Source: Clostridia bacterium (GTDB lineage: Bacteria; Bacillota; Clostridia; Oscillospirales; CAG-272). From it: a DNA stretch of 51,534 nt. Positions 20,258 to 39,700 of this stretch are shown piece by piece. The notes beneath the pieces are model-generated. The model ran no database searches. It saw only the letters and a list, made by a program, of their open reading frames with translations, and was not told where the DNA came from. The position numbers and the translations under genes are program-made. Each line of letters starts with the position of its first letter. The stretch's first letter is position 1. The stretch is from positions 1-51,534 of the forward strand of contig JAGCNJ010000040.1 in NCBI GenBank assembly GCA_017646005.1, given 5' to 3'.

Positions 20258-20331
20258 TGTCAAAGCTCCTGTATTTATGGCGTATATACGCCTGTTACAG
20301 TTTATGAAGCAACGCTTGATTCTGACAAAAG

Positions 20332-20357
20332 AAAAAGCGCACCGAAGTGCGCTTTTT
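20332..20357 (-). terminator. Intrinsic terminator after the phosphatase-dockerin gene
   Basis: aaaaagcgcac-cgaa-gtgcgcttttt hairpin 8 nt past the stop. Confidence 0.8.
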
Positions 20358-20365
20358 GACATTAT

Positions 20366-23300
20366 TTATCCAACGAGCGGAAGTGTTTCATATCCTGACC
20401 AGGATGCAAGGTGTCTTGCGAGTATTACGCTGTCACCTGACGTGATGGTACTGTCACCGTCCATATTACAGTACTCTGCCCATACGGAAACGTCATATCC
20501 GGTCCAGTTTGCAAGATAACGGCTTAAGATAACCGAGTCGGTAGAACCGATAACGCCGTCAGCATCCACATCGCCTGCTCTCATAACGGGGATCTCTTCG
20601 CTCTGACCAAAGCTGTTTGCTCCATATACCTTTGCCATAAAGCGTGCAACGTCGATATTTTCTATCGGTCCTCCCGCAAGAGCATCAACACCTGCGCCGA
20701 ATGCGTAGAGAGGCACGTTTCTGTTCGTGTGCACTTTTGTCGTGAATCTGTATCCGACACCAAATGACAGTTCGCTGTTATCGGCTGTTATTCCGCCCGT
20801 TTCGTGGTCAGCAGTAACTATAAGCGCGGTATCCGGGTGAAGAATTACAAACTGTGAAGCATAGGCGATAGCATCGTTGAATCGCTTTACGTTACTTACG
20901 ATAGAAAGCGCGTAATTAGCGTTTACAGCATCAAGACCACCGTGCGAATCCATACCACCGTCTTCAATCATAGCAAAGAAACGGGAACCATTTTCACTTA
21001 TCTTTTTAAGTGCTTTCTTCGTATGTTCTGTGAGTCCGTTTCCAACCGAGCCCGCACAGTAATCAAGTGCACCGCTTACGACAAGAGCATCAATATCTGC
21101 CTGAATCTCATCGTAGTTGGTTCTGTTATCATTATGCACAAAGAAGCTTGCAGGCGTAGCACCCGTGATTGCATCGTTTGTAACTACCGCAAGCTCTGCT
21201 CCGTTTTCATAAGCGAGCTCACTTACATGCTTAACATCATTTCCGTCCTTGTCCTTACCAACCTTTGCAGTGTAAGTCTTGTATCCGGTAGAAAGAGCTG
21301 TTGCTGAGGCCGCGCTGTCCGTATAGCCGGGATCAGTCTTACCCTTTAACACGTTATCTATTACACCCTGATGTCTTGTTATCTGTCTTTCTGCTACGGG
21401 GAAATCCTGTGCAACAAATTTATCAAGGCCGTTTGCCAGTGCCATATTGATATGGTTATACCCCATTCCGTCACCGATCATTATGATAACATTTTCAGCC
21501 TTTTCCGCAAAACCTGCAAAAGTCTTTTTGCTTGCAGTTTTGGGAAGCGTCGTAATATTGATGCTTCCGCCCTCATTTGATTCTATATATTCCTGTGTGA
21601 ATGCGGCAACGCTCTGCGCGGTGTAAAGTCCGTTCTCGCTCATAACGACCTTATTGCCGTTTTTCACAAGAACATATTCGTTCGCACCAAGTCTTATGCC
21701 TGTGCTCGATTCACTTCGATTTGTATTACCGACAAGTATTTCGTAATCACTTTCAGCTGTTTTATCGGAAACTATCTCGGGAATACAATTCAGGTTTGAA
21801 GAAATATAATCCGCCAACAATTCTGCGGCATACTTTGAGTAAAGACTGCAGTTCTCCGGTATTACTATTTTATAATTACCGATATCAACTCCGTCAATCG
21901 CAATGTTGTCAAAGCGGTATGACGCAACAGTTACGTCAACAGTTCTTGTTATTACGGGAGCTGTGGAAAGTCCTGCATTAGCCTTGATTGTAAGTCTTGC
22001 ATTGCCGCCGTCTATAGCCTTGATCCTTCCGTTTACAATATCAACTATCTCAGGATTATCCGAGCTTACCGATACGTTCTCGAACGAACCGTAGGGTGAA
22101 ACGTTAACAGACAGGTCAAGCTCGCTGCCTTCCATTACCGTTATTGATGAAACCTCATTTCCCTTGCTTGTCACTTTAAGCGATTCGACCGCAACGTTAC
22201 TCCAATTTTTCTGAGCAAATGCTGCAGCATCAGCTTCTTTCTCGAAGAATGCAACGTATTCAAGCAAGAAGTAGGAGCCTGCATTTGCACCTCCCGTATA
22301 CTGCCAGGGCTTGAAGCGAAGCTTCTGACCGGTCATAGCCTCTGTGGGAGTATAGTTACTTGAGCCGGTTAATATGAAGTCATCACGTTTAATTACAGCC
22401 GACTTCCATTCACCCTTTGATGCTGCCGGCTTTGTACCCATAAAGAATGAATATGCGGTGATATCAGAGCCGTAAACGCCCTGCACCGATGCCTTATCGG
22501 CATAGAAGCTTGTATCAAGGTTATTTGCGTTCTGTGACTGGAAATAGCTTGCCACCCAATAAGGATACTTTGCCATATTGATTCCGCTCACAGACTGTGT
22601 AATGTTTATTTCGGGGTTTTCTCCCTCTATTGCATCAAAGCGTGCGTATATCTTTTTCTGTGCGAAATCGTATACTGTTCTTACGTTTGAGGTAGCGCTT
22701 GTCTGTGATATTTCAAAAAGCTCTTCTCCGCTGAGAATGATATGATCAACTCTCATCTCATAATTAAGCGTTGAGGGGATAATAACAGTTTTGTTTTCGG
22801 CATCAACGTAAGTATTATAGAAATACCAGAGTGCAGTTACGGTATCCTCCGCAGTGCCTCCGACTATAAAAATACGCTTACTGCTCTTGTCGTACTTAAC
22901 TATATATTCACCCGCAACAAGACCCTGAGAAAGTGCTCCCGAACGGTTTGTGTTTCCGATCACGATTTCCTTTGCCACGGGATCAGCAGCTGCATCTGAC
23001 GTATCAGATGCCGTGGGAATATTTCCGACACCCAGATCATATCGCATAGCATTTGCAAGATTAGCAAGCTCAGGCGTAATTATATCTGAAATATCGTCGT
23101 CGTATATGATTGTGTATTCGGCGTTGCCGTCGGCTACTACCGTAATATCGCCTTCATCCTCTTCAGGCTTGTTAAGGCTTTCGATATATTCCTTTGCCGC
23201 GCTTTCGCTCTTGAAAAATGCAACGTAATCAATTGCAAAATACGAGCCATCCGTTGCGTTGCTCGTCCAGGGCTTGAATCGCAGATACTGACCTGTCATC

Positions 23301-24343
23301 GATGACACGGGAGGACATCCCTCTGTGCCATAGAAATTATCTCTTACAAGAATTGTCGTCTTCCATTCACCGTTTGATCCCTCGGGATGAGGATTTGAGT
23401 AAAAAGAGTTTGTGATATCCTGCTCGTTCGGGTATGCCGCCTGTACAGACTGGAGATCGGCCTTGAAGGTAGCATCGAGCTTTGATGCATTTTGTGACTG
23501 ATAATAGCTTACCACCCAATAAGGATACGCCGCGAGATTAACTCCGGAATCCTTCTGTGTGATGCTGATCTCGGGCTTTGTTCCGGACACTGCCGCAAAT
23601 TTAACGTAGGTTTTTCCGGATACCGTATCGTTCACAAGTGAGGATGTGGCATTCTTGAGCAATGATGCCGCTGCAAAAAGTGCCTGTCCGCTGACCACCT
23701 TGCTGTCTTCGAGATTCAGGCTGTTAATATAATCCTCGGCAGCCTGCTCACTCTTAAAAAATCCAACGTATTCAAGCGCAAAGTAAGAGCCGTCCTTGGC
23801 ATTGCTCGACCAGGGCTTGAAGCGGAGATACTGTCCTGTCATAGCAGAGGTAGGCGGATAGTCTGCCGAATCAGCGTAAAAGCCGTCACGCTTAAGTACT
23901 ACCGTCTTCCATTCACCGTTCGAAGCTGCCGGCTGATCCTGTCCGCTGCAATAAAACGAGTTTGTAAGTCCCGCATCGGGGTATACTGTGTTTATGGACG
24001 TAAGATCCGCCTTGAACGTAGTATCAAGTCGGGTTGCAGTCTGTGACTGATAATAGCTGACTACCCAATAAGGATATTCGGCTAAGTTTACACCGGACGC
24101 CCCCTGTGTGATGCTTATTTCGGGCTTTGTTCCCGTAGTTGGTACAAACTTCACATAGGTTCTGCCCTGTGCGTCTGTCTCTACGCTTTTGCTTGCAACG
24201 TTCTTTATGGAAGTCGCGTTTGAAAGCGCAGTGCCGGCTAAAATTATGCTGTCTGCTGTTGCTCCCGAAACGTTAACCGGAAATGCGCAAAGCTGCATAA
24301 CAAGAATAACGGCGATCAGAATAATTGACATCGTCTTTTTCAT
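20366..24343 (-). CDS. Large secreted multidomain alkaline-phosphatase-family protein with three unknown repeat domains, two GH20-domain-2-like modules, an Ig-like domain and a C-terminal dockerin-like module
   Basis: Signal peptide. AP motifs IGDGMG, TDSAASATA, ATPA, TADHETGG and HT..NVPLYAFG. Two EI.(I/V)GNTNR modules. C-terminal duplicated GDVDADG..DSVIL.R.LA.W. Confidence 0.85.
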   Translation of the reverse strand: MKKTMSIILIAVILVMQLCAFPVNVSGATADSIILAGTALSNATSIKNVASKSVETDAQGRTYVKFVPTTGTKPEISITQGASGVNLAEYPYWVVSYYQSQTATRLDTTFKADLTSINTVYPDAGLTNSFYCSGQDQPAASNGEWKTVVLKRDGFYADSADYPPTSAMTGQYLRFKPWSSNAKDGSYFALEYVGFFKSEQAAEDYINSLNLEDSKVVSGQALFAAASLLKNATSSLVNDTVSGKTYVKFAAVSGTKPEISITQKDSGVNLAAYPYWVVSYYQSQNASKLDATFKADLQSVQAAYPNEQDITNSFYSNPHPEGSNGEWKTTILVRDNFYGTEGCPPVSSMTGQYLRFKPWTSNATDGSYFAIDYVAFFKSESAAKEYIESLNKPEEDEGDITVVADGNAEYTIIYDDDISDIITPELANLANAMRYDLGVGNIPTASDTSDAAADPVAKEIVIGNTNRSGALSQGLVAGEYIVKYDKSSKRIFIVGGTAEDTVTALWYFYNTYVDAENKTVIIPSTLNYEMRVDHIILSGEELFEISQTSATSNVRTVYDFAQKKIYARFDAIEGENPEINITQSVSGINMAKYPYWVASYFQSQNANNLDTSFYADKASVQGVYGSDITAYSFFMGTKPAASKGEWKSAVIKRDDFILTGSSNYTPTEAMTGQKLRFKPWQYTGGANAGSYFLLEYVAFFEKEADAAAFAQKNWSNVAVESLKVTSKGNEVSSITVMEGSELDLSVNVSPYGSFENVSVSSDNPEIVDIVNGRIKAIDGGNARLTIKANAGLSTAPVITRTVDVTVASYRFDNIAIDGVDIGNYKIVIPENCSLYSKYAAELLADYISSNLNCIPEIVSDKTAESDYEILVGNTNRSESSTGIRLGANEYVLVKNGNKVVMSENGLYTAQSVAAFTQEYIESNEGGSINITTLPKTASKKTFAGFAEKAENVIIMIGDGMGYNHINMALANGLDKFVAQDFPVAERQITRHQGVIDNVLKGKTDPGYTDSAASATALSTGYKTYTAKVGKDKDGNDVKHVSELAYENGAELAVVTNDAITGATPASFFVHNDNRTNYDEIQADIDALVVSGALDYCAGSVGNGLTEHTKKALKKISENGSRFFAMIEDGGMDSHGGLDAVNANYALSIVSNVKRFNDAIAYASQFVILHPDTALIVTADHETGGITADNSELSFGVGYRFTTKVHTNRNVPLYAFGAGVDALAGGPIENIDVARFMAKVYGANSFGQSEEIPVMRAGDVDADGVIGSTDSVILSRYLANWTGYDVSVWAEYCNMDGDSTITSGDSVILARHLASWSGYETLPLVG
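22215..24256 (-). repeat. Three intragenic copies of a ~175-aa domain (approx. 23720-24256, 23170-23710, 22215-22750)
   Basis: Each copy has PEI.ITQ..SG(V/I)N(L/M)A.YPYWV.SY.QSQ...GEWK...MTGQ.LRFKPW...SYF...YV.FF. Confidence 0.85.
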
Positions 24344-24368
24344 GTTTTCCCTCCGAAAATATAATTTA

Positions 24369-24397
24369 TTGACAAAATGCTCTCTGTATGGTATAAT
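24369..24397 (+). promoter_or_regulatory. Consensus sigmaA promoter of the AraC gene
   Basis: TTGACA-17 nt-TATAAT with an extended TG. Confidence 0.8.
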
Positions 24398-24423
24398 TCA
24401 ACAAGAACACTTCTTCAATTTAA

Positions 24424-24452
24424 AGTATAAACATTTAACGCACCCTTGTCAA
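24424..24452 (-). promoter_or_regulatory. sigmaA promoter of the phosphatase-dockerin gene
   Basis: Minus strand reads TTGACA-17 nt-TATACT. Confidence 0.72.
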
Positions 24453-24486
24453 CGGGAATATCTTGCGACGAACAGGAAAATATTGC

Positions 24487-25281
24487 ATGTATACACAAAA
24501 ATTAAAAGTGAACACCGGTCTTCCGATCTTCCCCATATCTGCAGCTCTTCTTGTTAAGCAGACGCCGATATCTATGCCCGCAGGCAGCAGAAGACACCAT
24601 GTTCTCTGGGTAAATGACGGAGAAATGAGCCTTACGATCAACAACGTAACACATACACTGCAAAAAAACACGGGTATTATTTTCCGCGCCAATACACCCA
24701 TAAAATATTTCAGCGCAGACGACCGCGAGCTTACAACCTCTTGGATCACCTTTAAGGGCGGCGATCAGCTTATTGAATACAGCTGTATAGAAAAATACCT
24801 TATTTTCAAATGTCCTCCCGATATGGATGCAAGAGCGCAGGAGCTTCACAACTTCATTATACAGGAAAATCCGGATATACTCAAATCATCCGAAACATAC
24901 CGATGGGTTTCAGAGTTGCTCAACTGCATCGCAAAAAAAGAACCGAGCGTTTCGGAAATGGTAAGGGCTTATCTTTATCAGAATTTTTTCAAGCAGCTTT
25001 CTCTTGACGATATAGCGGCTGCCGTGGGGATAAACAAATTTTCGCTCTGCCGTATATATAAAAATGAAACCGGATACCAGATAATATACGATCTCAAGCG
25101 CATAAGATGCGAAAAAGCCTCTCACCTGCTTGTACACACTGCCATGTCCATACAGGAGATAGGGCACGTATGTGGATATGTTGATTCCGACTACTTCAGC
25201 AAAAATTTCAAGAGTTATATGAAATGCACGCCAAGCGAATACAGGAAGAAGTGCAACAGCAAAGAGAATATACAGGAATAA
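24487..25281 (+). CDS. AraC-family transcriptional regulator
   Basis: N-terminal cupin-like domain; LSLDDIAAAVGINKFSLCRIYK and IQEIGHVCGYVDSDYFSKNFKSYMKCTPSEYRK double HTH. Start ATG 24487. Confidence 0.92.
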   Translation: MYTQKLKVNTGLPIFPISAALLVKQTPISMPAGSRRHHVLWVNDGEMSLTINNVTHTLQKNTGIIFRANTPIKYFSADDRELTTSWITFKGGDQLIEYSCIEKYLIFKCPPDMDARAQELHNFIIQENPDILKSSETYRWVSELLNCIAKKEPSVSEMVRAYLYQNFFKQLSLDDIAAAVGINKFSLCRIYKNETGYQIIYDLKRIRCEKASHLLVHTAMSIQEIGHVCGYVDSDYFSKNFKSYMKCTPSEYRKKCNSKENIQE

Positions 25282-25312
25282 AAAAAGAGGTCACCAAGTG
25301 ACCTCTTTTTTT
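25280..25312. terminator. Bidirectional terminator between the AraC gene and the carboxypeptidase gene
   Basis: aaaaaagaggtcac-caa-gtgacctctttttt between convergent stops. Confidence 0.85.
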
Positions 25313-26273
25313 ATGTAAAATTATCATACAGATACAAGGTATCGTCGACCTGCTTTTGCTCGGTACGGTGATTGCCCGGTCCGCCTAAAACCACAGACAC
25401 ATATCTGTTTCCGTTATTTTCTCCATATGTGGCAAGGCAAAGTCCGGCATCATATGTAAAGCCGGTTTTTCCGCCGTATATCATTGCTTCTTCAGGGGTT
25501 TTGCCGCCAAGCTTTGAAAAGACCGTGCTTTTCATTGTAAATCCGTCGGGATGCTTATTTGTCGGTCTGACAGTATACCTCTGTGTGCTTGATATTTCGC
25601 GGAACTGCTCATTTTCAAGTGCATAAATAAGTATCTGTGCCATTTCAGCCGCATTCGAATAGTGACCTTCTGCATCAAAGCCGTATATGTTTTCAAAATG
25701 AGTATTTGAAAGTCCCATTTCAAGAGCCTTCGCGTTCATCATATCAACAAGCGCGCTGTCGCTTCCCGCAATATACTCTGCCGCGGCGGCTGCCGCCTCC
25801 GCGCCCGACGGAAGCATTATTCCGTATAACAGATCACGCAGAGTTACCTTTTCACCCGGCAGAAAGCCTGCCATTGACGCACCCTCGCGATACAGCTTAT
25901 CGTACAGCTTCGGAGAAACAGTAACGCTCGCATCAAGATCCTGTGCATTTTCAAGTATCACAATCGCAGTCATTATTTTTGTAAGAGATGCGGGTGCCAC
26001 TCTTGCACCGCTATCCTTTTCCGCTATGACCGAGTGCGGCTCTGACAAGCAGAAGTAAGCATTCCTTACGACAAGCTCATCGTCAAGAGATACCGATGCA
26101 CTTTCAGGCTGTATCTGAGAGCTTACGGCATATACGCTTGTGTTTTCAAGCATAGTCTTTGGCGTGCCCAAAAGTATATCGGAATTTTGGGGTGCAAATA
26201 TAATACAGATTATTACAAGCGACACCAGACCTGCAAGCTTCAGACCAAGAAATCTGTTTTTACTTCTTTTCAT
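25311..26273 (-). CDS. D-alanyl-D-alanine carboxypeptidase (peptidase S11)
   Basis: N-terminal TM helix, PASLTKIMT (SxxK), MLPSGAEAA (SxN variant) and GGKTGFT. Confidence 0.9.
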   Translation of the reverse strand: MKRSKNRFLGLKLAGLVSLVIICIIFAPQNSDILLGTPKTMLENTSVYAVSSQIQPESASVSLDDELVVRNAYFCLSEPHSVIAEKDSGARVAPASLTKIMTAIVILENAQDLDASVTVSPKLYDKLYREGASMAGFLPGEKVTLRDLLYGIMLPSGAEAAAAAAEYIAGSDSALVDMMNAKALEMGLSNTHFENIYGFDAEGHYSNAAEMAQILIYALENEQFREISSTQRYTVRPTNKHPDGFTMKSTVFSKLGGKTPEEAMIYGGKTGFTYDAGLCLATYGENNGNRYVSVVLGGPGNHRTEQKQVDDTLYLYDNFT

Positions 26274-26814
26274 TTCTCATTTTATCAACCTTCAGCACGG
26301 CACAGACCGTTTTGCCGTCGGTGATCTCCCCATTCAAAACCTTCTGTACAAGCATATCGAACGGAAGCTTCTCAACGCTCAGAAATTCGTCCTCGTCAAG
26401 ATCCTGCGCTCCAAGACTCAAATCGGTAGCATAGTAAAGATATATTACCTCGCTCAAAAGCGCAGGGCTTGGAATATACTCACCAAGATATGTCACGCTT
26501 GCGCTTGTAAGACCTGTTTCCTCTCTGAGCTCACGCATAGCCGCCTCAAGATGATCCTCTTCTGCAAAATCAAGCTTTCCCGCAGGAATTTCGGTTATAA
26601 CACGCCCGTGAGGATATCTGTACTGATTAACGATATAAGCGTTATCGTCCTTATCTATGGCAAGTACGGCAACAGCTCCGTTATGCTTGAGATATTCGCG
26701 GGTCGATCTTTCGCCGTTGGGAAGCAATATCTCGTCAAGATAGAGATGTGCAACCACCCCGTCAAATACAAGCCTTGAGCTTATCTGCTTTTCTATGAGT
26801 TTTTCTGTATTCAT
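26260..26814 (-). CDS. nudF: NUDIX hydrolase, ADP-ribose pyrophosphatase
   Basis: QYRYP, EIPAGKLD...AMRELREETG Nudix box, DEDEFL and ITDGKT. Confidence 0.9.
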   Translation of the reverse strand: MNTEKLIEKQISSRLVFDGVVAHLYLDEILLPNGERSTREYLKHNGAVAVLAIDKDDNAYIVNQYRYPHGRVITEIPAGKLDFAEEDHLEAAMRELREETGLTSASVTYLGEYIPSPALLSEVIYLYYATDLSLGAQDLDEDEFLSVEKLPFDMLVQKVLNGEITDGKTVCAVLKVDKMRNEKK

Positions 26815-26819
26815 TCCGT

Positions 26820-28541: not shown

Positions 28542-28564
28542 TGTATTTTCCTCCGTAACTTATC

Positions 28565-28822
28565 TCAGTTGTTTTCAAGCTCAAGCTTAAGCGCGGTCGC
28601 TAACTGGTCAGGGCAGGACGTTCTCTTGAATCCGCACTTTATCCCCTCGAGTCGCTTTATAACGTCCTGTGCATCCATTCCGACGACAAGACTTGCGATA
28701 CCGTGGGTATTTCCGTCGCATCCGCCGATAAATTTCACGCTTTCGATTATATTTCCGTCAAGCTCTATTTCTATTGCACGGGAGCAGGTTCCCTGAGTTT
28801 TATAATTTAATGTTCTTTTCAT
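28565..28822 (-). CDS. TSCPD-domain protein (TIGR03905-like, four Cys)
   Basis: GTCSR, GGCDGN and GIKCGFKRTSCPDQLA. Confidence 0.88.
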   Translation of the reverse strand: MKRTLNYKTQGTCSRAIEIELDGNIIESVKFIGGCDGNTHGIASLVVGMDAQDVIKRLEGIKCGFKRTSCPDQLATALKLELENN

Positions 28823-28844
28823 AATTACGTCCTTTCATTAAGCC

Positions 28845-31648: not shown

Positions 31649-31704
31649 TTTTGAGAATCCTTTCGTTACATAAACATCGGAAACGACACCGATATACAGA
31701 TAAT

Positions 31705-31732
31705 ATTATACCATAATTTTACGAAATTTCAA
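31705..31732 (-). promoter_or_regulatory. sigmaA promoter of the htpG operon
   Basis: TTGAAA-16 nt-TATAAT with an extended TG. No CIRCE element seen. Confidence 0.6.
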
Positions 31733-31909
31733 GTACGCGCAGCAATATTTAATAATTTATTATAATTTTCCCGAAGTCCGATTGACCGCGCCGCAGATGT
31801 AAATTTTTCGTAAATATCTCATCTTCCGCTGTCATAAACTATTGATATATGTTAAAATTGTTTTATATCCCGCACTTAACAACACAAGTTACGGAAAGGC
31901 TTCAAAACT

Positions 31910-34900
31910 ATGAAGAGATTTTTTTGCACCATTATAGCTCTCTTGATTTTACTGACTTCTCTGCCGGTATTTGCATCGGAAGCTGAGACATCCAAATATG
32001 TTCAGATTCCGGCTACCGAGCTTTTTACTTACATTGTAAAGTATACGTTCAAAAGCACACTTGAGCTTGAAGAGGCGGCGTCCTTTTCAGACAGCATTCC
32101 TTATATACACTCAACCCTTGAGCCGGGAACATATAACAACAATCAGGGCGTGCTGGAGATAAAAGCTGCAGATGTTGGCATCAATATGCTCGAATACCCT
32201 TTTGTAAAGCTCGAATACCGCACCGATTCACCGTACAAAACCAAAGATATAACCATATATTCATCAAAGGGTGAAAATTGGAAAGATCCCAAGGATCCTC
32301 ATACCGCGGACGGTGAATTTCACGATATAATCTTTGATGTACGCAAGCTAAACGATGTAGAAGAAAAAATCCCAACGTACGAGGACGGAGTGAACATAAG
32401 ACTCCGCCTCAAGCCTCTTGGCTCCGGCACAAGAACACTTGATGCTTCACATTATTATGATATTAAATATATAGCATTTTTCAAAACCGAGGCCGATGCT
32501 CTTGCGCACACGTACAATTATAATATGCTTGACGACGATTATGCAGGTGCATTTAAGACTCCTATAGAATACCTCCCCCTGACAAACGACGCAGAGGATG
32601 AAATACTTTCGGGCGCGGAATCACTCAAAAAGAAGATAATCAATTCGGAAAGCATTTCACCCGACAGCATATCCGGCACAGTATACTACGTTTCAAACAA
32701 CGGAAACGATAACAATTCAGGCACAAGCCCGGACGATGCACTTGCAACGATTTCCGCAGTAAACGCCCTTAAGTTAAATCCGGGAGACGGTGTGTTCTTT
32801 GAGCGCGGAAGCCTGTTCAGAGGTCCTACATTAAGTATGAAGGCAGGCGTAACATACTCCTCATACGGCGAGGGCGAAAAGCCGAAAATATGGCGTTCTC
32901 TCGACGGTGTCGGCAAGTAAAAATGGCATCAGACTCCGTATAAAAACGTATGGCAGTTTGAAACCACTCTTTCCCGGGGCGAGGACGTCGGAAACATTAT
33001 TTTCAACGGCGGTGAAGCCTGGGGAATAAAGATCATCAAGGAGGATGATAATACAAGACAGAACCAGGATCTTGTTTACAACGGCTATGAAAGCTTTGTA
33101 TCTTCCGGCAATATGCCATTTATAGATGAAAGGGATCTCTCAAACGAGCTTGAATTCTGGCACAGTACAAACGACGGTAACGTTTATCTTTACTACAGTC
33201 ACGGCAACCCCGGAGAGCTTTTTGATTCGATTGAACTTTCAAGAAAAGGGCATTGCGCAAACGGCAGTGCTGACAATGTAACTGTCGACAATATAGCTTT
33301 CGGCTACACAGGCTCTCACGGTGTAGGCGTAGGAAATGCAAAAAACTTTAAGGTACAGTATTGCACGTTTGAATACGTTGGAGGTTCTCTCCAATACACC
33401 GACGGCCGCGGCACCCGATACGGAAACGCTGTGGAGAACTGGGCGTCCTGCGACGGCTTTGTTATAGACCACTGTTACGCTACCCAGACCTATGACTGTT
33501 GCTATACAACGCAGTGGCAGGGCTCGGGTTCAACAAGCGATATCATAATGCAGAACGTTGTATTTTCAAACACTGTCAGCGAATACAGCAACAGCGGTCC
33601 CGAGGTATGGCTTGCAGCTAATGACAACGATACAACACATACATATATGATAAAGGATATGGATGCGTACAACAACTACGTTCTTTACGGCGGTTACGGC
33701 TGGAGCCATCAGCGTACCAATAAGGACGGTAACTTCTTCTACGGCGGATCTGCGGGAGCGACTACTGTATTTGACAACGTTACGTATCACGATAATATCT
33801 TCTTCAAGGCAACGCACCTTGCCGTAAAAGCCCGTTACTCCAAAAAGGGCTACGGGTACGATTTCACAAACAACGTTTTCGTTATGGCAGAGGGACAGCA
33901 GATGGTCGAAACCGGAATAAATCTTAATGATTGCTCCGGTCCGGTCACAAGGTACAAGTACAATAAAAGCTACATCAGAACTCTCATTTACTTCGGATTT
34001 TTCACAGACAGCACATTCTATCATTACGATATTGAAGACGCGGCGATCCCGATGCCCGAAAATGACTATCCTTATACCGAGGGCTTTGAGTATGTGACTA
34101 TACCAACGGATATTAAGCGCGGTGATTATGAGATCATAACAGCCGAGCAGCTTCTTGAATGGGCATCTTCCTCGCAATTTAACAATATGCCTTATTCCAA
34201 GGAACTTGTAGCTGACGAAAACGGTATCAATTATTTCAGACTCAATTCAAAGGAAGGGACCTATAAGGACGGAGAATGTACCTACACGTTACCACTAAGC
34301 TCGCTCGGGCAAAATATTGAAGTTAAAAAATTTCCCTTCATTAAAATAGGTTATAAAACGAATATCCAGAGCGACAATGTCTCGGTGTTCAATTATTACA
34401 CCCAATACAATTCCAAAACGAAGCGCCTTTGGGGTCCCACCATATATCGCGCTTCAAATGAAGAGCCGCAAAGCACAATAATCAAGGTCAAGGGTTCAAC
34501 CAGCGGCGGAGAAAGTATTTCAAGCTTTGACTGGAACAAGATAAACGACGGCGCTATATATGAAAAGCTTTATTTAAAGCCCTGGGGAGCGCAGACAATC
34601 ACCGTTCCTGCGGGTGAATATTACGATATCTCATATATCGCCTTCTTTGAAAATATTAATGACGCTATGTTCTTTGAATATCCTGAACGAATCACCATCT
34701 GCGGAGATGTCAACGACGACAAAAGCGTTGATATAGCTGATGAGATACTCTTATCCCGTTATAATTCAAGCATGCCGGGATATCTTCATCTTGCTAATAT
34801 CCGCGCCGGAGATCTCAACGCAGACAACTTCGTTTCGGTTATTGACTCTGTAATCCTTGCACGACACATAGCAAACTGGCACGATTATCAAACTCTTCCC

Positions 34901-34918
34901 TACAAAACAGAAGATTAA
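31910..34918 (+). pseudogene. Secreted right-handed beta-helix protein with two unknown domains and a dockerin-like module, interrupted by one in-frame TAA at 32918-32920
   Basis: Track ORFs 31910..32920 and 33113..34918 are in the same frame. The gap translates openly (GK*KWHQTPYKNVWQF...DVGNIIFNGGEAWGIK...YNGYESF) and aligns with the intact paralog 36757..39909. Confidence 0.85.
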
Positions 34919-34937
34919 ACGAAAGGATTCAAAACAT

Positions 34938-36581
34938 ATGAATAAGCGCACATTTATCCCGGCGCAGGCGATTATTGTTATAATAATTGCGTTATTTCTT
35001 ACCCTTTCTGTCTTTGCAAGTCCGACCGAAATAATACCTGATGGCTTCATCGGGGTTTACAATGCAATTGATCTGACAAGGATGTTACCTGACGACAATT
35101 ATATCCTGCTCGATGATATTGATATGACCGGCGTAAGCTTTACACCGATCGGCACCTCAGCTGCTCCCTTCACCGGTATTTTTGACGGAAACGGACATAC
35201 CATAGAAGGGCTCAGCATATCTTCAAATGCACCGTATAGTGCAATGTTTGCATACGCTGACAATGCTGAAATAAAAGATCTGAAGCTTGAGAACGCAAGC
35301 ATAATCATAAACGCATCAAGCAAGACTGTTTACGCAGCACCCATATGCGCAAGCGCGTCAAACGGCACGGTAATTTCAGGTTGCAGCGTCAGCGCTGTAG
35401 CAGACATCACGGCAAGCACCGACGTATATGCCGCGGGTATATGTGCCTATTCAAACGGTGCTCATATCAAGTCCTCTGTTGCTGACGTTGACATCAGCGT
35501 GACCACGACAAAAAATATTTCTTCTATAGGCGGTATCGCAGGCTATCTGTTTGCCGATTCATCTGTAACCGATTGCGAAAACTATGGCTCACTTTCGGGA
35601 ATTTCTGCCGACGAAAGCTATATCGGCGGTATAATAGGTATATCAAAGCGCGACCTTAACAACACCTCCAAGGCAAAGCCTGCCGTGTCGGACTCATTTA
35701 ATTTCGCAGACATAAGCGTTTCAACAAAAAAGAACATTACCGTAAGCTGTGCGGGTATTGCCGCAAAGGGCGAAAATCTTACAGTAAGCGGATGTAAAAA
35801 CACGGGAGATATCACGGCAAGCTGTCCTGTCGGTGCCATTGCCGCGGGCATATCGGGATATCAATCGAGAAATAACATAAACGAATGCGCAAATCTCGGA
35901 AACGTATCGGCAACAAGTACAGGCGCTGATGCATATGCCGGCGGAATCGTCGGTGAGGCAAACGTCGCAACAATCAGTAGCTCATACAACAACGGCTCTG
36001 TTTTTGCAAGCGGAAAGCAAAGCACTAACGCAGGCGGTATTTTCGGGCACGGTACTCAGTTCAACAAGATTGAATACTGCTATAATTCAGGAGTAAATCT
36101 ATCAGAAGCGGGAAGTAACATCGGTACTCTTATAGGCTCAGCCTCGTACAACGATACGTGCACCACGCTGTATACACTTGAAAGCACTTCTCATCCTGCC
36201 ATAGGAAACCGTATTGATGAAAACGCGGTAACGCTTCTTTCATCCACTCAAATGAAGAATGCCGAAAGCTTCGAGGGCTTTGATTTCGTTAATGTATGGT
36301 ATATGCCGACCGACAGCGAGACAGGATATCCCGAGCTTGTAATATTCAAGCCTGCTGAGCCCGTCATCATACTTTACGGTGATGTCGACAACAACGGTAC
36401 GGTAGATTCAAACGACAGCGTAGTATTAGCACGCTATCTTGCCAAGTGGACAGGATACGATGAAATCAATGAAGAAGATTCCGATCTGAATTCGGATACT
36501 GTCGTTGATTCAACAGACAGCGTAATCCTTTCAAGGCACCTCGCCAAATGGACCGGCTATGATACCCTGCCCTTAAAATAG
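34938..36581 (+). CDS. Secreted GLUG-motif-type beta-helix protein with a C-terminal dockerin-like module
   Basis: Signal peptide, YILLDDIDM..FTPIG..FTGIFDGNGHTI, repeated (A/I)GGIxG and C.N.G.(I/V) units, FDFVNVW..GYPEL, then GDVDNNG..DSVVLARYLAKW twice. Confidence 0.82.
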   Translation: MNKRTFIPAQAIIVIIIALFLTLSVFASPTEIIPDGFIGVYNAIDLTRMLPDDNYILLDDIDMTGVSFTPIGTSAAPFTGIFDGNGHTIEGLSISSNAPYSAMFAYADNAEIKDLKLENASIIINASSKTVYAAPICASASNGTVISGCSVSAVADITASTDVYAAGICAYSNGAHIKSSVADVDISVTTTKNISSIGGIAGYLFADSSVTDCENYGSLSGISADESYIGGIIGISKRDLNNTSKAKPAVSDSFNFADISVSTKKNITVSCAGIAAKGENLTVSGCKNTGDITASCPVGAIAAGISGYQSRNNINECANLGNVSATSTGADAYAGGIVGEANVATISSSYNNGSVFASGKQSTNAGGIFGHGTQFNKIEYCYNSGVNLSEAGSNIGTLIGSASYNDTCTTLYTLESTSHPAIGNRIDENAVTLLSSTQMKNAESFEGFDFVNVWYMPTDSETGYPELVIFKPAEPVIILYGDVDNNGTVDSNDSVVLARYLAKWTGYDEINEEDSDLNSDTVVDSTDSVILSRHLAKWTGYDTLPLK

Positions 36582-36590
36582 AACAATCAA

Positions 36591-36629
36591 GATTACAGTA
36601 GCGATATTATCGCTACTGTAATCAATTTT
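36591..36629 (+). terminator. Long palindrome / probable terminator after the GLUG-dockerin gene
   Basis: gattacagtagcgata-t-tatcgctactgtaatc (16-bp arms) followed by aatttt. Confidence 0.6.
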
Positions 36630-36694
36630 CCGCATATAGGATATGCCCAAAACTTATATAAGGAAAACTTAATGTAAATTAACACGGATTCCAC

Positions 36695-36724
36695 TTTACT
36701 CGAGTCGATATGCAATGATATAAT
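36695..36724 (+). promoter_or_regulatory. Putative sigmaA promoter of the 1050-aa beta-helix gene
   Basis: TTTACT-18 nt-TATAAT with an extended TG; SD gaaagga before ATG 36757. Confidence 0.5.
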
Positions 36725-36756
36725 ATGCTCAATCGTAATAATGAAAGGAACAACCT

Positions 36757-39700
36757 ATGAAAAGGATAATTTGCGCTTTACTTGTAATATTCCTCGCGCT
36801 TTCCTATATCCCCACATATTCATCTGCCGCTGCAGACTACATTGAGCTTATGCCGTATGAAATAGTATCTTCGTATATGAGCATAGTCGATTTCGGATAT
36901 ACAATGGAGGGAATTGACACTGACCCTTACATTCATCTCACATCCAAGCCGGGCAGCTACAACAATAATAATTACTATTTAAGCTTCAAGGCTTCAATGC
37001 TTGGAATAAATATGCTTGACTATCCGATAATCAAGCTCGGTTATCGCACGGATTCTCCCTACAGTATGATAAATGCAAGTATAAAATCCGATGCGGGAGA
37101 AAACTATCCCAAGTCGCATACTGCTCACACTACCGACGGTAAATGGCACGACGTGGTGCTTGATATGACAACCTTTAATTCACAGGAAGGGACATTCCCC
37201 TCTTATGAGCAGGGTACGTCAATCAATCTTATCTTCAAGCCGCTCGGCTCGGGAAACAAGACATTTACAAAAGAGCACTATTACGACCTTAAGTATATAG
37301 CCTTTTTCAAGACAAAGGCTGACGCTGACGCTTACACCTACAGTTATAACAAAAATGAAGACAGCGGGATCGGCAAAGTAACAAAATACTCACCGCTTAC
37401 AAATTCTGTCGAAAACGCGATCCTTTCGGGCGCGGATGAGCTGATACAGGATATCCTGGATGCTCCCAACAATTCATATACCCCTACCGGAAGCGGAAAG
37501 ACATATTACGTTTCGGAAAAGCTTGGCAACAGCACAAACAACGGAACAAGTCAGAGCGCGCCGATAACGATAGCAAGGTTAAAGACTTTGTTAAGTAACA
37601 ATTCCATTCCCGAAGGCTCGGTAATTTTGTTCAAGCGCGGCGAATTATTCAGGGCAAACGGTACAATCAAGCTGACTGCACCCGGTCTGACACTTTCTGC
37701 TTACGGTGAAGGCGAAAAGCCTAAAATATATAACTCAATTGCAGGCGAAGGCAAAAGCAACTGGACCCGCACGTCTACCATGCACGTATGGAAATTCACC
37801 GGTAAAAGCCTGACCAAGAATCAGGACGTAGGAAACATCGTATTCAATAACGGTGAGGGTTGGGGTATCAAGGTATCCAAGAAAAACAAGACCGAAAACC
37901 TCAGAGTTGATATAGGTACGGTATTCAACGGTTACGAATCCTTTATGTCGGGCGGAGATCCTGCCGACGCAAGTGGAAACAGCTTCAGCCCATACAGGCA
38001 ATCCACACCGTTCACAGATCAGAGGGATCTTTCAAACAACCTCGAATTCTATCACAACTGGGATGACAACACCCTGTATTTGTACTACGATAAAGGCAAT
38101 CCCGGCAAGGTATTCGATTCAATCGAGATAGCTATCGGCAGCAACTTGTTGTATATGGGCTCTGCGGAAGCTGAGAATGTTACCGTAGACAACATCTCCT
38201 TTGCACATACGGGAAGACACGGTATTGGAATGCAGTACGGCAAAAATATTCTGATCAAGAATTGCACGTTTGCCTGGATCGGCGGATCGCTCCAGTATCC
38301 CGAAAATTATGAAACCGGAGATTCCGGAAAAACACGTCTCGGAAACGCCGTTGAAAACTGGGGCTCGTGCAGTAACTACACGATCGATCATTGCTATGCA
38401 ACCCAGATATACGACTGTTGCTTTACCACGCAGTACAGTATTGGCACCAACGACAGTATAACCAGTTCAAATTCGTTAGTGAAAATGAGTGACGTTACCT
38501 TCACAAACACCGTAAGCAGCTACAGCAACAGCGGTCCCGAGGTATGGCTTACAAACTCCTCACAATATGCCACCTCCGATAACTGCGACTGGTCGATAAA
38601 GAATCTCGAAGCAACGAACAACTACGTTCTCTACGGCGGATACGGCTGGGGACATCAGCGCTTTAACAAAGACAGTAATTTCTTCTACGGCGCTGTTCAG
38701 ATCGATAACACCACCTTATACGAAAACTGCGAATACTATGACAATTACTTTTTCAAGGCGAGACATACAGGAATAAAAGCGCGCTATGCAAAAAAAGACG
38801 GTCGTGAAAACAGCGGATACGATTTTCACGATAACACCTTTGTTATGGCTGAGGGACTGACTATTCTCCAAACCGGTAATAACCTGGATGACTGCTCAGG
38901 TACAACTACACATTATAAGTACGATCAAGCAACAATTTCCTCACTCGTTGCAAACGGTTTCTTCCCCGGAAGCGATTTCTACTATTACGATATAGCCGAT
39001 GCAGGCTTGCCGACGTCCGGAGCCGAATATCCGAGCGATCCGAATTACGACAGTTCAATAATAGTAGGCGAAATGCTCTTAGCAGAGGATCTGTCAGGTT
39101 ACGCAGACAGCCTTTCGTTTAACGGCATCGGATATTCAAGCTCACTCGTAACCGACGAAGACGGCGTTGACTACTTCAGAATAAACGCCGAAGCAGGTAG
39201 CTTTTCGGATGACCAATGCTATCTTGCAATACCGCTTGAATCACTCGGATACGGAATCAACGTGAAAACAAATCCCTATATTAAGCTCGCTTACAGAACG
39301 AATATTTCGGGCACAAATACACTTGCGGTCAACTATGTGGCACAGTATCCGATCAAGAACTTTTTCTTCACAACGAATTATGACGCAACGATTACAGGTC
39401 CTACACTTACAAAGGTATCCGACGGTACGCGTCAGAGTAGTACCATAAATATTGCAAATACCTCAACAGGCGGCACATACACCTCGTCAGGCTGGGACAG
39501 CACTTCAACAAAAACAATATCGGATTTCAGCTTCAATACTATTACCGACACCGCCAATTACAAGGAATTGCGGCTCAAGCTCTGGGGCGCAGGTGATGTA
39601 AGTCCCGTCGACGGTGAATACTTTGATATAGTTTATATTGCATTCTTCCCCGATGCGGAATCCGCAGAAAAATTTGAATACCCCTATGTTGAAAATCACC

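What the first reader, a model, noticed from the sequence alone, without database searches (positions are those of the whole stretch)
22215..39680. Unrecognised ~175-aa domain present seven times in three dockerin-bearing proteins
Seen: three copies in the phosphatase protein (approx. 22215-22750, 23170-23710, 23720-24256), two in the interrupted beta-helix gene (approx. 32000-32510, 34120-34680) and two in the intact paralog (approx. 36835-37345, 39060-39680). Shared pattern: [IV][NE][LMV]xx[YFN]P[YFI]xxxxY...(G[EK][WF] in five copies)...[LI]x[FL]K[PL][WL]...Y[FY]x[IL]xY[IV][AG]FFxxxxxA. Examples are GVNLAEYPYWVVSY..LRFKPW..YFALEYVGFF and GINMLEYPFVKLEY..LRLKPLG..YYDIKYIAFF. In the beta-helix proteins it flanks the central domain on both sides. 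I do not recognise it as a named family. Inference: alternating hydrophobic strands, conserved aromatics and a terminal Y-x-I-x-Y-I-A-F strand suggest a galactose-binding-like jelly-roll, possibly a new carbohydrate-binding module that directs different enzymes to one substrate.
Basis: partly seen in the sequence, partly recalled or inferred. Interest (0 to 1): 0.72.

Follow-up and report, generated by a model that had tools for sequence, protein, structure and literature searches.

The report
Unannotated jelly-roll module in cellulosomal enzymes
A roughly 180-residue domain repeated seven times in three secreted, dockerin-bearing proteins is a real, unannotated family with the beta-sandwich fold typical of carbohydrate-binding modules, so it probably tethers different gut-bacterial enzymes to a sugar polymer that is still unknown.

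Summary
There are exactly seven copies of a 180-218 aa domain, at the stated coordinates, in a phosphatase-dockerin protein (3 copies), an intact beta-helix-dockerin protein (2) and its paralog broken by one in-frame TAA (2).

The copies fall into three divergent subtypes that are homologous over their full length (hhalign probabilities 99.2-99.9%; shuffle control).

No Pfam, NCBIfam or PDB sequence model covers the domain. The best match is a partial, sub-threshold hit to SGBP_B_XBD.

AlphaFold2 gives a confident beta-sandwich (pLDDT 95.1). Foldseek places it among galactose-binding-domain-like jelly rolls (CBM11, CBM22, CBM30, CBM4, CBM6, SGBP-B), with TM of about 0.5 at most and 8-16% identity.

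The family has 257 representatives in 1.84 billion proteins. It usually occurs in several copies. Partners include dockerin, SLH or Flg_new anchors and SGNH esterases, beta-helix glycanase-like domains, glycosidases and phosphatases.

Best reading: a new family of non-catalytic, CBM-like targeting modules in gut and rumen Clostridia. The fold is shown. Glycan binding and the ligand are inferred. "One shared substrate" is doubtful because the subtypes are so divergent.

The parts
20366..24343 (-). Gene for a 1325-aa secreted multidomain protein (P0001). Order: signal peptide, copies AP_1 and AP_2, unassigned region, copy AP_3, Ig-like region, unassigned region, alkaline phosphatase, dockerin.
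   Evidence: ORF list, translation; Pfam Alk_phosphatase 2.8e-34 and Dockerin_1 1.3e-05; PDB alkaline phosphatases down to E 1.3e-24.
23708..24262 (-). Domain copy AP_1 (P0001 residues 28-212), subtype III
   Evidence: hmmsearch 236 bits; 62% identical to AP_2; subtype assignment.
23138..23707 (-). Domain copy AP_2 (P0001 residues 213-402), subtype III, directly following AP_1
   Evidence: hmmsearch 237 bits.
22178..22738 (-). Domain copy AP_3 (P0001 residues 536-722), subtype III
   Evidence: hmmsearch 241 bits; 46-49% identical to AP_1 and AP_2.
20609..21511 (-). Alkaline phosphatase catalytic region (approximately P0001 residues 945-1245)
   Evidence: Pfam PF00245, best stretch 949-1095, two stretches; PDB matches over residues 940-1115. 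The C-terminal limit is my estimate.
20408..20578 (-). Type I dockerin of P0001 (residues 1256-1312)
   Evidence: Pfam PF00404, 25.8 bits against a cut-off of 22.9.
31910..34918 (+). Beta-helix/dockerin gene 'BHa', one reading frame broken by a single TAA. The upstream piece is 336 aa (P0003) and the downstream ORF 601 aa (P0004).
   Evidence: Read-through translation shows one stop; sequence. An intact 1002-aa relative (P0005) has Asp at that position.
32918..32920 (+). In-frame TAA stop that interrupts BHa
   Evidence: Searches show that both pieces lie in the same frame.
31982..32539 (+). Domain copy BHa_N (P0003 residues 25-210), subtype I
   Evidence: hmmsearch 244 bits; 48% identical to BHb_N.
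34115..34702 (+). Domain copy BHa_C (P0004 residues 335-530), subtype II
   Evidence: hmmsearch 239 bits; 40% identical to BHb_C.
34703..34870 (+). Dockerin of BHa (P0004 residues 531-586)
   Evidence: Pfam PF00404, 27.4 bits.
36757..39909 (+). Intact beta-helix/dockerin gene 'BHb' (P0002, 1050 aa). Order: signal peptide, subtype I copy, beta-helix core, subtype II copy, dockerin.
36826..37371 (+). Domain copy BHb_N (P0002 residues 24-205), subtype I. This is the copy that was modelled.
   Evidence: hmmsearch 230 bits; AlphaFold2 pLDDT 95.1, pTM 0.89; Foldseek.
37372..39048 (+). Right-handed beta-helix core (P0002 residues 206-764), probably a glycan-cleaving catalytic domain of no assigned family
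   Evidence: AlphaFold2 pLDDT 89.2. Foldseek hits: GH141 BT_1002, GH120 XylC, GH136, capsule lyases, tailspikes, all TM 0.39 or less. The profile matches GH136 lacto-N-biosidases at E 3e-23 to 1e-17, but only over about 100 N-terminal positions.
39049..39702 (+). Domain copy BHb_C (P0002 residues 765-982), subtype II, with a longer insertion (218 aa)
   Evidence: hmmsearch 227 bits; alignment.
39703..39870 (+). Dockerin of BHb (P0002 residues 983-1038)
   Evidence: Pfam PF00404, 30.2 bits; PDB dockerins at E 2e-08.

Best explanation
The repeat is a previously unannotated family of autonomous, non-catalytic beta-sandwich (jelly-roll) modules of the galactose-binding-domain-like superfamily. It most likely acts as a carbohydrate-binding module.

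Proposed mechanism. The three proteins are secreted (N-terminal signal peptides) and held on the cell surface or scaffoldin by their C-terminal dockerins. The jelly-roll copies bind a polymeric glycan and so keep the attached catalytic domain (alkaline phosphatase, or a beta-helix glycanase-like domain) close to its substrate. Several copies per protein raise avidity. The best candidates for the binding site are the family-wide conserved positions (BHb_N numbering): Trp94 (GE-x-W), Asp104-Gly105-x-Trp107, and Lys138-Pro139-Trp140 (L-R-x-K-P-W-G), together with an acidic stretch at 127-129. The terminal Y-F-D-I-x-Y-I-A-F-F strand and the following helix are most likely structural core.

The family has three subtypes: I (N-terminal in the beta-helix proteins), II (C-terminal, with an insertion) and III (phosphatase). 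They may recognise different ligands or different parts of one composite substrate.

Shown: the repeat, its homology, its absence from family libraries, the fold, the family's size, its modular use and its extracellular context. Inferred: glycan binding, the binding residues and the avidity role. Unknown: the ligand.
For: 1. Real, homologous repeat.

2. Fold. The AlphaFold2 model of BHb_N, built with a 61-sequence alignment, has mean pLDDT 95.1 and pTM 0.89. It has about 12 strands plus short N- and C-terminal helices. Foldseek against the PDB gave 94 matches at E<=1e-3. The 50 listed are almost all jelly-roll beta-sandwich domains, most of them CBMs:
- CBM11 1v0a, TM 0.52/0.55
- CBM22 4xup, 0.51/0.56
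- CBM30 2c24, 0.52/0.54
- CBM4, CBM6, CBM86
- SGBP-B 5e7h/5e7g
- also CIA30/NDUFAF1, Cry toxin domain III and ephrin-receptor ligand-binding domains

3. Independent feature-based look-alikes for two different copies are the same set of families: Exop_C, DUF4979, CBM27, CBM30, SGBP_B_XBD, Lyase_N, CBM_4_9 (leads only).

4. The only recurrent Pfam signal is the xyloglucan-binding domain SGBP_B_XBD. It matched 3 of 61 domain sequences at E<=1, best 3.8e-4. P0021 scored 30.2 bits against a cut-off of 26.4, and P0162 scored 23.4 bits.

5. Modular, extracellular use. There are 257 representatives at E<=1e-3. I counted 413 instances in 166 proteins. 124 of 163 proteins have 2-8 copies, and the first copy starts by residue 60 in 113 of 163. 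Of the 90 relatives scanned with Pfam:
- 22 have a dockerin, 21 SLH, 27 Flg_new repeats, 17 a GDSL/SGNH esterase (some with CE2_N)
- single cases carry GH78, GH27/36+NPCBM, GH3+CBM6, alkaline phosphatase, calcineurin-like phosphoesterase or cohesin
- 21 have no Pfam family at all

6. It is an accessory module. Only 17 of 73 genomic loci encoding relatives of the beta-helix enzyme carry it.

7. The partner beta-helix domain resembles glycan-cleaving enzymes.

8. Conserved aromatic and charged positions: W94 in 51/61, K138 in 56/61, P139 in 51/61, G105 in 42/61, D104 in 35/61, W107 in 29/61, W at 140 in 31/61.
Against: - No binding experiment exists and no ligand can be named.
- Structural similarity to every solved CBM is only fold-level (TM about 0.55 at most, 8-16% identity, rmsd 5-9 A). 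Non-carbohydrate jelly rolls score equally well: the complex I assembly factor is the top hit at E 4.6e-06, and Cry toxin domain III and ephrin receptors also appear.
- I could not see model coordinates, so I do not know whether the conserved Trp/Lys/Asp positions lie together on one exposed face. Some may be core residues.
- W94 is Tyr in the modelled window copy. The G[EK][WF] motif is missing in both BH_C copies.
- Phosphatases are unusual CBM partners.
- The Atlas scores (0.90-0.95) fall in a range that shuffled sequences sometimes reach. Recognition for the AP copy (2188) was below the tool's 2300 guide value.
Confidence: 0.6

Rival explanations
1. Structural 'X-module'. The jelly roll binds nothing. 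It serves as a spacer, folding aid or stabiliser for large secreted multidomain proteins.
For: The most conserved positions (Y73, Y152, Y157, F161, A167) look like core residues. 21 of 90 relatives have no recognisable catalytic or anchoring domain. Fold similarity to CBMs is only generic.
Against: Up to 8 copies per protein, free combination with at least eight unrelated catalytic families, and absence from 56 of 73 beta-helix loci fit a portable targeting module better than a domain-specific stabiliser. Loop positions with Trp, Lys and Asp are conserved across subtypes that otherwise share about 20% identity.
Confidence: 0.17
2. Cell-surface or microbe-directed adhesin module. It binds a bacterial envelope polymer (teichoic acid, capsular or S-layer glycan, peptidoglycan) rather than dietary plant fibre. 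It would either anchor the protein or aim the enzymes at microbial glycans.
For: It is fused to phosphoesterases in at least three architectures: the window alkaline phosphatase, P0050 (alkaline phosphatase) and P0060 (calcineurin-like). Other partners are SGNH esterases, a choline-binding-repeat protein (P0019), GH78 rhamnosidase and beta-helix domains that resemble capsule depolymerases and phage tailspikes. Phage tail-fibre jelly rolls are equally good structural matches.
Against: Most carriers already have a dedicated anchor (dockerin 22, SLH 21 of 90). The nearest sequence family and the best-matching CBMs (SGBP-B, CBM11/22/30/4) bind plant beta-glucans or xylans (depositor descriptions). 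CE2_N, CBM6, GH3 and GH27/36 partners point to plant polysaccharides.
Confidence: 0.15
3. Divergent cohesin-like or other protein-protein interaction module that adds a further assembly layer to the cellulosome.
For: Cohesins are also beta-sandwich jelly rolls. A 2026 paper reports ruminococcal cohesins detectable only by structure (PMC13463774, passages read). The carriers are cellulosomal.
Against: No cohesin appears among the 50 listed PDB fold matches or in the PDB or Pfam sequence searches. One relative (P0047) carries a separate Pfam cohesin in addition to the module. Many carriers are SLH proteins without dockerin systems.
Confidence: 0.04

Closest known systems
Type B beta-sandwich CBMs of the galactose-binding-domain-like superfamily (CBM11, CBM22, CBM30, CBM4, CBM6)
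   Same: Same overall jelly-roll beta-sandwich and similar size (about 160-190 aa). They are appended to extracellular, often cellulosomal, enzymes, frequently in tandem (Foldseek TM 0.43-0.56, probability 1.0).
   Different: No detectable sequence relationship in Pfam or PDB profile searches; 8-15% identity in structural alignments. The module has extra N-terminal and C-terminal helices and its own motif set (YPY-K-x-Y-R-T, GE-x-W, DG-x-W, L-R-x-K-P-W-G, Y-F-D-I-x-Y-I-A-F-F-K-T-E-x-x-A). Partners include phosphatases.
SGBP_B_XBD (Pfam PF18329), the xyloglucan-binding domain of Bacteroides ovatus surface glycan-binding protein B (PDB 5E7G/5E7H)
   Same: It is the only Pfam family with recurrent weak sequence matches, over the GE-x-W to DG-x-W region: window BHb_N 15.4 bits, P0021 30.2 bits, P0162 23.4 bits. 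The structures are fold matches at ranks 14 and 19. It is also an Atlas look-alike.
   Different: Matches cover only about 45-50 of 186 profile positions. They are below the cut-off for every window copy and were seen in 3 of 61 family members. TM is 0.37-0.40. The host lineage is Bacteroidota lipoproteins, against Clostridia dockerin and SLH proteins here.
CIA30/NDUFAF1 complex I assembly factor domain (PDB 7ZKQ/7ZKP)
   Same: Top Foldseek hit (E 4.6e-06, TM 0.46-0.49). It has the same jelly-roll superfold.
   Different: It is a mitochondrial assembly chaperone with 12% identity and an rmsd of about 9 A. There is no contextual similarity.
R. flavefaciens cellulosomal CBM families CBM75-CBM80 (recalled from memory: Venditto et al. 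2016; the paper was not in the searchable library)
   Same: These are accessory modules found among the many 'unknown' regions of ruminococcal dockerin proteins. For that background I read passages of PMC2930009, which reports 155 unknown domains in 118 dockerin proteins of FD-1.
   Different: No PDB chain matched the domain profiles at E<0.08. Any of these families with a deposited structure is therefore not detectably related. Which of them have structures is my recollection and was not checked.

Membership tests
Galactose-binding-domain-like (jelly-roll CBM-type) structural superfamily | Two-sheet beta-sandwich jelly roll superimposable on members such as CBM4/6/11/22/30 | tested here: met
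   AlphaFold2 pLDDT 95.1. Foldseek PDB gave 94 hits at E<=1e-3; the 50 listed are almost all jelly-roll domains, best TM 0.50-0.56. This is a prediction, not an experimental structure.
Pfam SGBP_B_XBD (PF18329) | Score at or above the gathering cut-off (26.4 bits) over most of the 186-position model | tested here: not met
   Window BHb_N: 15.4 bits, E 0.021, profile positions 112-161 only. The other six window copies had no hit at E<=1. 3 of 61 family members matched. One relative (P0021) reached 30.2 bits for the whole protein, but with no stretch significant on its own.
Any Pfam-A or NCBIfam family | Significant model match covering the domain | tested here: not met
   window copies; 98 relatives scanned. 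A newer precomputed Pfam annotation lists only dockerin and phosphatase on P0001 and dockerin on P0013. PF26918.1, listed on relative P0006 only, is not in the local library and could not be identified.
Existing CAZy CBM families | Sequence similarity to a family's characterised founding member | tested here: inconclusive
   No match to any PDB chain sequence with profiles of 7 or 61 sequences (best E 0.86 and 0.088, porin and antibody chains). No CBM Pfam model matched. CAZy/dbCAN models were not available, so families with neither a structure nor a Pfam model were not tested.
Carbohydrate-binding module (functional definition) | Demonstrated, autonomous binding of the isolated module to a carbohydrate | not testable with these tools
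   Needs glycan arrays, affinity electrophoresis or ITC with recombinant modules.
Cohesin | Match to the cohesin model (PF00963) or cohesin structures, and dockerin binding | tested here: not met
   No cohesin or among the 50 listed fold matches. Dockerin binding was not tested.
GH136 (lacto-N-biosidase) - for the flanked beta-helix core, not the module | Full-length similarity to the GH136 catalytic beta-helix, with conserved catalytic residues | tested here: inconclusive
   The 70-sequence profile matches 5 GH136 chains at E 3e-23 to 1e-17, but only over profile positions of about 28-134. Fold matches have TM 0.21-0.36, and GH141 and GH120 rank higher. Catalytic residues were not compared.

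The most novel reading that the evidence does not exclude
The module founds a new CBM family whose ligand is not a classical plant-fibre polysaccharide. The ligand would be a phosphorylated or otherwise decorated microbial or host glycan, such as a teichoic-acid-like or capsular polymer. Its three subtypes would bring phosphatases, SGNH esterases and beta-helix depolymerase-like enzymes together on that polymer. Part of the 'cellulosome' of these gut Clostridia would then be a machine for dismantling other microbes' envelopes or complex decorated glycans rather than cellulose.
Probability: 0.12. Interest if true: 0.7.

Novelty: new member of a known kind. Interest (0 to 1): 0.45.

Why it matters
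Ruminococcal and related gut Clostridia carry large numbers of dockerin and SLH proteins whose non-catalytic regions are unannotated. PMC2930009 reports 155 unknown domains in R. flavefaciens FD-1 alone (passages read). This family accounts for a recurring part of that unannotated material: 413 instances in 166 proteins from one search.

If it binds a glycan, it would define a new CBM family, give a probe for that glycan, and help assign substrates to the orphan enzymes it decorates: the beta-helix family, cellulosomal phosphatases and SGNH esterases.

A curated model could be built directly from alignment A2. That would improve annotation of gut and rumen metagenomes, where NCBI currently names a close relative only 'dockerin type I repeat-containing protein'.

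Tried and rejected
- Range syntax 'P0028:36-218' in align_proteins was not accepted.
- The search for related loci with the 61-sequence domain alignment failed because no stretch was conserved enough. I used four full-length beta-helix proteins instead. The loci are therefore biased towards beta-helix genes and do not give the taxonomic range of the domain itself.
- The word-indexed homolog searches were insensitive: 7 and 12 hits among longer proteins, and none at near length. The exhaustive HMMER search is the basis for the family size.
- PDB sequence searches with both domain profiles gave only chance-level hits (porin at E 0.86; antibody heavy chains at E 0.09-1.4). I rejected them.
- Literature searches found no description of this module: plus 'PF26918'. 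Passages were read in PMC2930009, PMC13463774 and PMC2721979. The one 'alkaline phosphatase' mention in PMC2721979 is a cloning reagent.
- The viral fold library gave only generic phage tail-fibre jelly rolls with TM 0.57 or less.
- A possible second internal repeat in the phosphatase protein (residues about 400-540 against 720-950) reduced to one short shared motif (23 bits, E 0.002 in a two-sequence comparison). I did not pursue it.
- The idea that the module is an obligate part of the beta-helix enzyme was rejected, because 56 of 73 loci lack it.
- Not checked: the metagenome contigs and viral contigs collections (closed); dbCAN/CAZy HMMs; HHpred against Pfam; an AlphaFold DB fold library; model coordinates, so there was no surface mapping; Pfam on 58 of the 148 listed representatives (P0103-P0160).

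Full report
**What is there**

The region holds three genes for secreted, dockerin-bearing proteins.

- P0001 (20366-24343, minus strand, 1325 aa) has a signal peptide, two adjacent copies of the domain, an unassigned stretch, a third copy, an Ig-like stretch, another unassigned stretch, an alkaline phosphatase domain and a type I dockerin. The phosphatase matches Pfam PF00245 at 2.8e-34 and PDB alkaline phosphatases down to 1.3e-24.
- P0002 (36757-39909, plus strand, 1050 aa) has a signal peptide, one copy, a roughly 560-residue beta-helix core, a second copy and a dockerin.
- Its upstream paralog (31910-34918) has the same layout. It is split by a single in-frame TAA at 32918-32920. An intact 1002-aa relative, P0005, has Asp at that position.
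- A fourth dockerin protein lies between the two paralogs (34938-36581, repetitive, no Pfam family other than dockerin). It carries no copy.
- The surrounding genes are housekeeping genes of a spore-forming Firmicute, including YabQ, RelA/SpoT, RecJ, CdaA, HtpG, RpsB and the isoprenoid genes.

**Is the repeat real?**

Yes. A profile of the seven stretches, searched against every six-frame ORF of at least 50 aa in the window, recovers exactly those seven at 227-244 bits. Only two other fragments appear, and neither is significant. The copies are 182-218 aa long rather than about 175.

Identities within groups are 46-62% (phosphatase copies), 48% (N-terminal beta-helix copies) and 40% (C-terminal copies). 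Between groups, BLASTP gives 24-28% over 130-213 residues for two of the three group pairs. For phosphatase against C-terminal copies it finds only a short C-terminal match.

Profile-profile comparison settles the homology. I used three sub-alignments from a 61-sequence alignment, made of the 7 window copies plus one segment from each of 54 relatives. The results were:

- III vs I: probability 99.7%, E 3e-25, 162 columns
- III vs II: probability 99.2%, 167 columns
- I vs II: probability 99.9%, 174 columns

As a control that does not depend on the window, I built a subtype I profile from 27 non-window sequences. It scores the three phosphatase copies at 46-62 bits and the two C-terminal copies at 70-86 bits. 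The best of 200 shuffles of each copy reached 11.9 bits or less.

**Is it a named family?**

Not in anything I could search.

- Pfam-A and NCBIfam report only the phosphatase and dockerins on the window proteins.
- I scanned all 61 domain sequences separately against Pfam at E<=1. The only recurrent family is SGBP_B_XBD (PF18329, the xyloglucan-binding domain of a Bacteroides surface glycan-binding protein). It hit 3 of 61 sequences. The window copy BHb_N scored 15.4 bits against a cut-off of 26.4, over 44 residues.
- Two relatives score higher: P0021 at 30.2 bits for the whole protein, and P0162 at 23.4 bits.
- The protein database's precomputed annotation uses newer Pfam model versions. It also lists nothing on the domain in P0001, P0013 (the representative of P0002), P0022 and others.
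- One accession, PF26918.1, is listed for relative P0006 only. It is absent from the local library and from the literature search, so I could not identify it. It is not listed for P0009, which has the same architecture, or for the window proteins.
- Profiles of 7 and of 61 sequences found no PDB chain better than E 0.09, and those were chance hits to antibody and porin chains.
- NCBI names an 85%-identical relative simply 'dockerin type I repeat-containing protein'.
- Five literature searches, and passages read in three papers, turned up no description.
- dbCAN/CAZy models were not available, so a CAZy family lacking both a structure and a Pfam model cannot be excluded.

**Fold**

AlphaFold2 on BHb_N with the 61-sequence alignment gave mean pLDDT 95.1 and pTM 0.89. 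All five models scored 94.5 or more. The model is a beta-sandwich of about a dozen strands, with a short N-terminal helix (residues 10-17) and a C-terminal helix (164-169) that follows the long Y-F-D-I-x-Y-I-A-F-F strand.

Foldseek against the PDB returned 94 matches at E<=1e-3, and the 50 listed are almost all jelly-roll beta-sandwich domains. They include:

- CBM11 (1v0a, TM 0.52/0.55), CBM22 (4xup, 0.51/0.56) and CBM30 (2c24, 0.52/0.54)
- CBM4, CBM6 and CBM86
- SGBP-B (5e7h/5e7g, ranks 14 and 19)
- a xanthanase accessory domain
- the non-carbohydrate relatives CIA30/NDUFAF1 (top hit, E 4.6e-06), Cry toxin domain III and ephrin-receptor ligand-binding domains

No match exceeds TM of about 0.56 or 16% identity, so this is similarity of fold and not membership of a family. 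The viral library gave the same picture, with phage tail-fibre and minor-tail jelly rolls at TM 0.57 or less. The language-model look-alike search on two different copies listed the same families: Exop_C, DUF4979, CBM27, CBM30, SGBP_B_XBD, Lyase_N and CBM_4_9, at 0.90-0.95. By the tool's own calibration these are leads only.

**The family**

An exhaustive HMMER search of 1.84 billion representative proteins found 257 at E<=1e-3, 121 at E<=1e-10 and 27 at E<=1e-30.

I then looked at the 168 proteins held: the 150 listed by that search, the hits of the homolog searches and the window's own translations. The 61-sequence profile finds 413 instances in 166 of them. Of these instances, 188 are subtype I, 209 subtype II, 13 subtype III and 3 unclassified. 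Among 163 proteins (leaving out P0003, P0004 and the duplicate P0013), 124 have 2-8 copies, and in 113 the first copy begins by residue 60, just after the signal peptide. Subtypes mix freely within proteins. The I...II arrangement of the beta-helix proteins is kept in their relatives P0005 and P0007. P0008 also has two copies at matching positions, but I did not assign their subtypes.

I scanned 90 of the 148 listed representatives with Pfam (P0013-P0102). P0103-P0160 were not scanned. The E cut-off was 1e-4 and 1e-5. Counts:

- 22 have a dockerin, 21 SLH domains and 27 Flg_new/Listeria-Bacteroides repeats.
- 17 have a GDSL/SGNH esterase (some with CE2_N) and 12 have Big_2.
- Single proteins carry a GH78 rhamnosidase, a GH27/36 alpha-galactosidase with NPCBM, a GH3 with CBM6, an alkaline phosphatase (P0050), a calcineurin-like phosphoesterase (P0060), a cohesin, choline-binding repeats, or ricin/LRR/C-type lectin domains.
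- Two proteins (P0049 and P0053) match Pfam Beta_helix.
- 21 have no Pfam family at all.

Genomic relatives of the beta-helix proteins (73 loci) come almost entirely from gut and rumen metagenome-assembled genomes labelled Clostridia, Eubacteriales, Oscillospiraceae, Acutalibacteraceae or Ruminococcus. Four records carry other labels: Lachnospiraceae, Bacteroidaceae, Prevotellaceae and Thermodesulfobacteriota. The best match is only 43% identical. Only 17 of the 73 loci contain the module. It is therefore a portable accessory and not an integral part of that enzyme.

**The flanked beta-helix**

A 70-sequence alignment of the core gives a confident right-handed beta-helix model (pLDDT 89.2, pTM 0.92). 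Its profile matches GH136 lacto-N-biosidases at E 3e-23 to 1e-17, but only over about 100 N-terminal positions. A weak NCBIfam LnbX hit on P0003 fits this. Fold matches are led by GH141 BT_1002, GH120 XylC, GH136, Klebsiella capsule lyases, GH28, GH110 and phage tailspikes, all with low TM (0.39 or less). I read it as a glycan-cleaving enzyme of an undefined family. That is the kind of catalytic partner a CBM would have.

**How it most likely works**

The module is a non-catalytic targeting domain. Secretion and dockerin or SLH anchoring place the proteins on the cell surface or scaffoldin. The jelly-roll copies bind a polymeric glycan and hold the catalytic domain on it, and several copies add avidity.

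Candidate binding residues are those conserved across subtypes that otherwise share about 20% identity:

- Trp94: 51/61 (Tyr in the modelled copy)
- Asp104: 35/61; Gly105: 42/61; Trp107: 29/61
- Lys138: 56/61; Pro139: 51/61; aromatic 140: Trp in 31, Phe in 16, Tyr in 7 of 61
- an acidic run at 127-129

Tyr73, Tyr152, Tyr157, Phe161 and Ala167 (50-60 of 61) sit in long strands or the terminal helix and are probably core residues. I could not access model coordinates, so the spatial clustering of these residues is inference and not a result.

The ligand is unknown. The nearest families (SGBP-B, CBM11/22/30/4) bind beta-glucan or xylan chains, and several partners (CE2_N-SGNH, GH3+CBM6, GH27/36) point to plant hemicellulose or pectin. 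The recurring phosphoesterase fusions and the depolymerase-like beta-helix keep a microbial or phosphorylated glycan in play. Because the phosphatase carries only subtype III and the beta-helix proteins carry I plus II, I would not assume a single shared substrate.

My confidence is about 0.95 for the repeat and its homology, about 0.9 for the fold class, about 0.6 for glycan binding, and low for any particular ligand.

**Rivals**

- A purely structural X-module (0.17)
- A module aimed at bacterial envelope polymers (0.15; this overlaps the main reading in mechanism)
- A divergent cohesin-like protein-binding module (0.04). No cohesin appears in any search, and one relative carries a separate bona fide cohesin.

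**Novelty and verdict**

This is a genuine, sizeable domain family that the family libraries I could search do not annotate. It belongs to a very well-known structural and functional class, so I file it as a new member of a known kind: a candidate new CBM family. It is worth a curated model and a binding screen. It is not a new principle unless the ligand proves unusual.

Noticed in passing
window 32918-32920 (gene 31910-34918, + strand): A single in-frame TAA splits the upstream beta-helix/dockerin paralog into a 336-aa secreted N-terminal piece and a 601-aa ORF with no signal peptide. The intact relative P0005 has Asp at that position. It could be a recent pseudogene, a strain polymorphism or a sequencing error.
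   Followed up: partly
window 34938-36581 (+): A fourth dockerin protein (547 aa) lies between the two beta-helix paralogs. It has a hydrophobic N-terminus and a repetitive Gly/Ala/Ser-rich body, and matches no Pfam family other than dockerin. It carries no copy of the module.
   Followed up: partly
window 37372-39048 (+) and loci L016, L024, L037, L045: The beta-helix core family has no assigned family. It is GH136-like only at its N-terminus and GH141/GH120-like in fold. In gut MAGs it often occurs as tandem paralog arrays, for example six consecutive ORFs in L045 and four in L016.
   Followed up: partly
window 20366-24343 (-), P0001 residues about 405-535 and about 820-940: Two unassigned stretches of the phosphatase protein share a short motif (E-I-[VL]-[IV]-G-N-T-N-R-S ...). 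Similarity is weak (23 bits over 26 residues). They may be two copies of a further unannotated domain.
   Followed up: partly
window 24463-25281 (+): An AraC-family regulator gene (HTH_18 and HTH_AraC) lies divergently next to the phosphatase-dockerin gene. It could control that gene.
   Followed up: no
window 19196-20362 (-): A 388-aa ORF lies immediately downstream of the phosphatase gene. It has a Walker-A-like GxxGxGKS motif and no Pfam family at E<=1e-5.
   Followed up: no
protein P0006 (relative, not in the window): The database's precomputed annotation lists Pfam PF26918.1 on this one relative. The accession is absent from the local Pfam copy and from the searched literature, so what it covers is unknown.
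   Followed up: partly
relatives P0050 and P0060: The module is also fused to phosphoesterases in other proteins. P0050 has a copper-amine-oxidase-N-like domain, one subtype III copy and an alkaline phosphatase. P0060 has two subtype I copies, SLH domains and a calcineurin-like phosphoesterase. The phosphatase association in the window is therefore not a one-off.
   Followed up: partly
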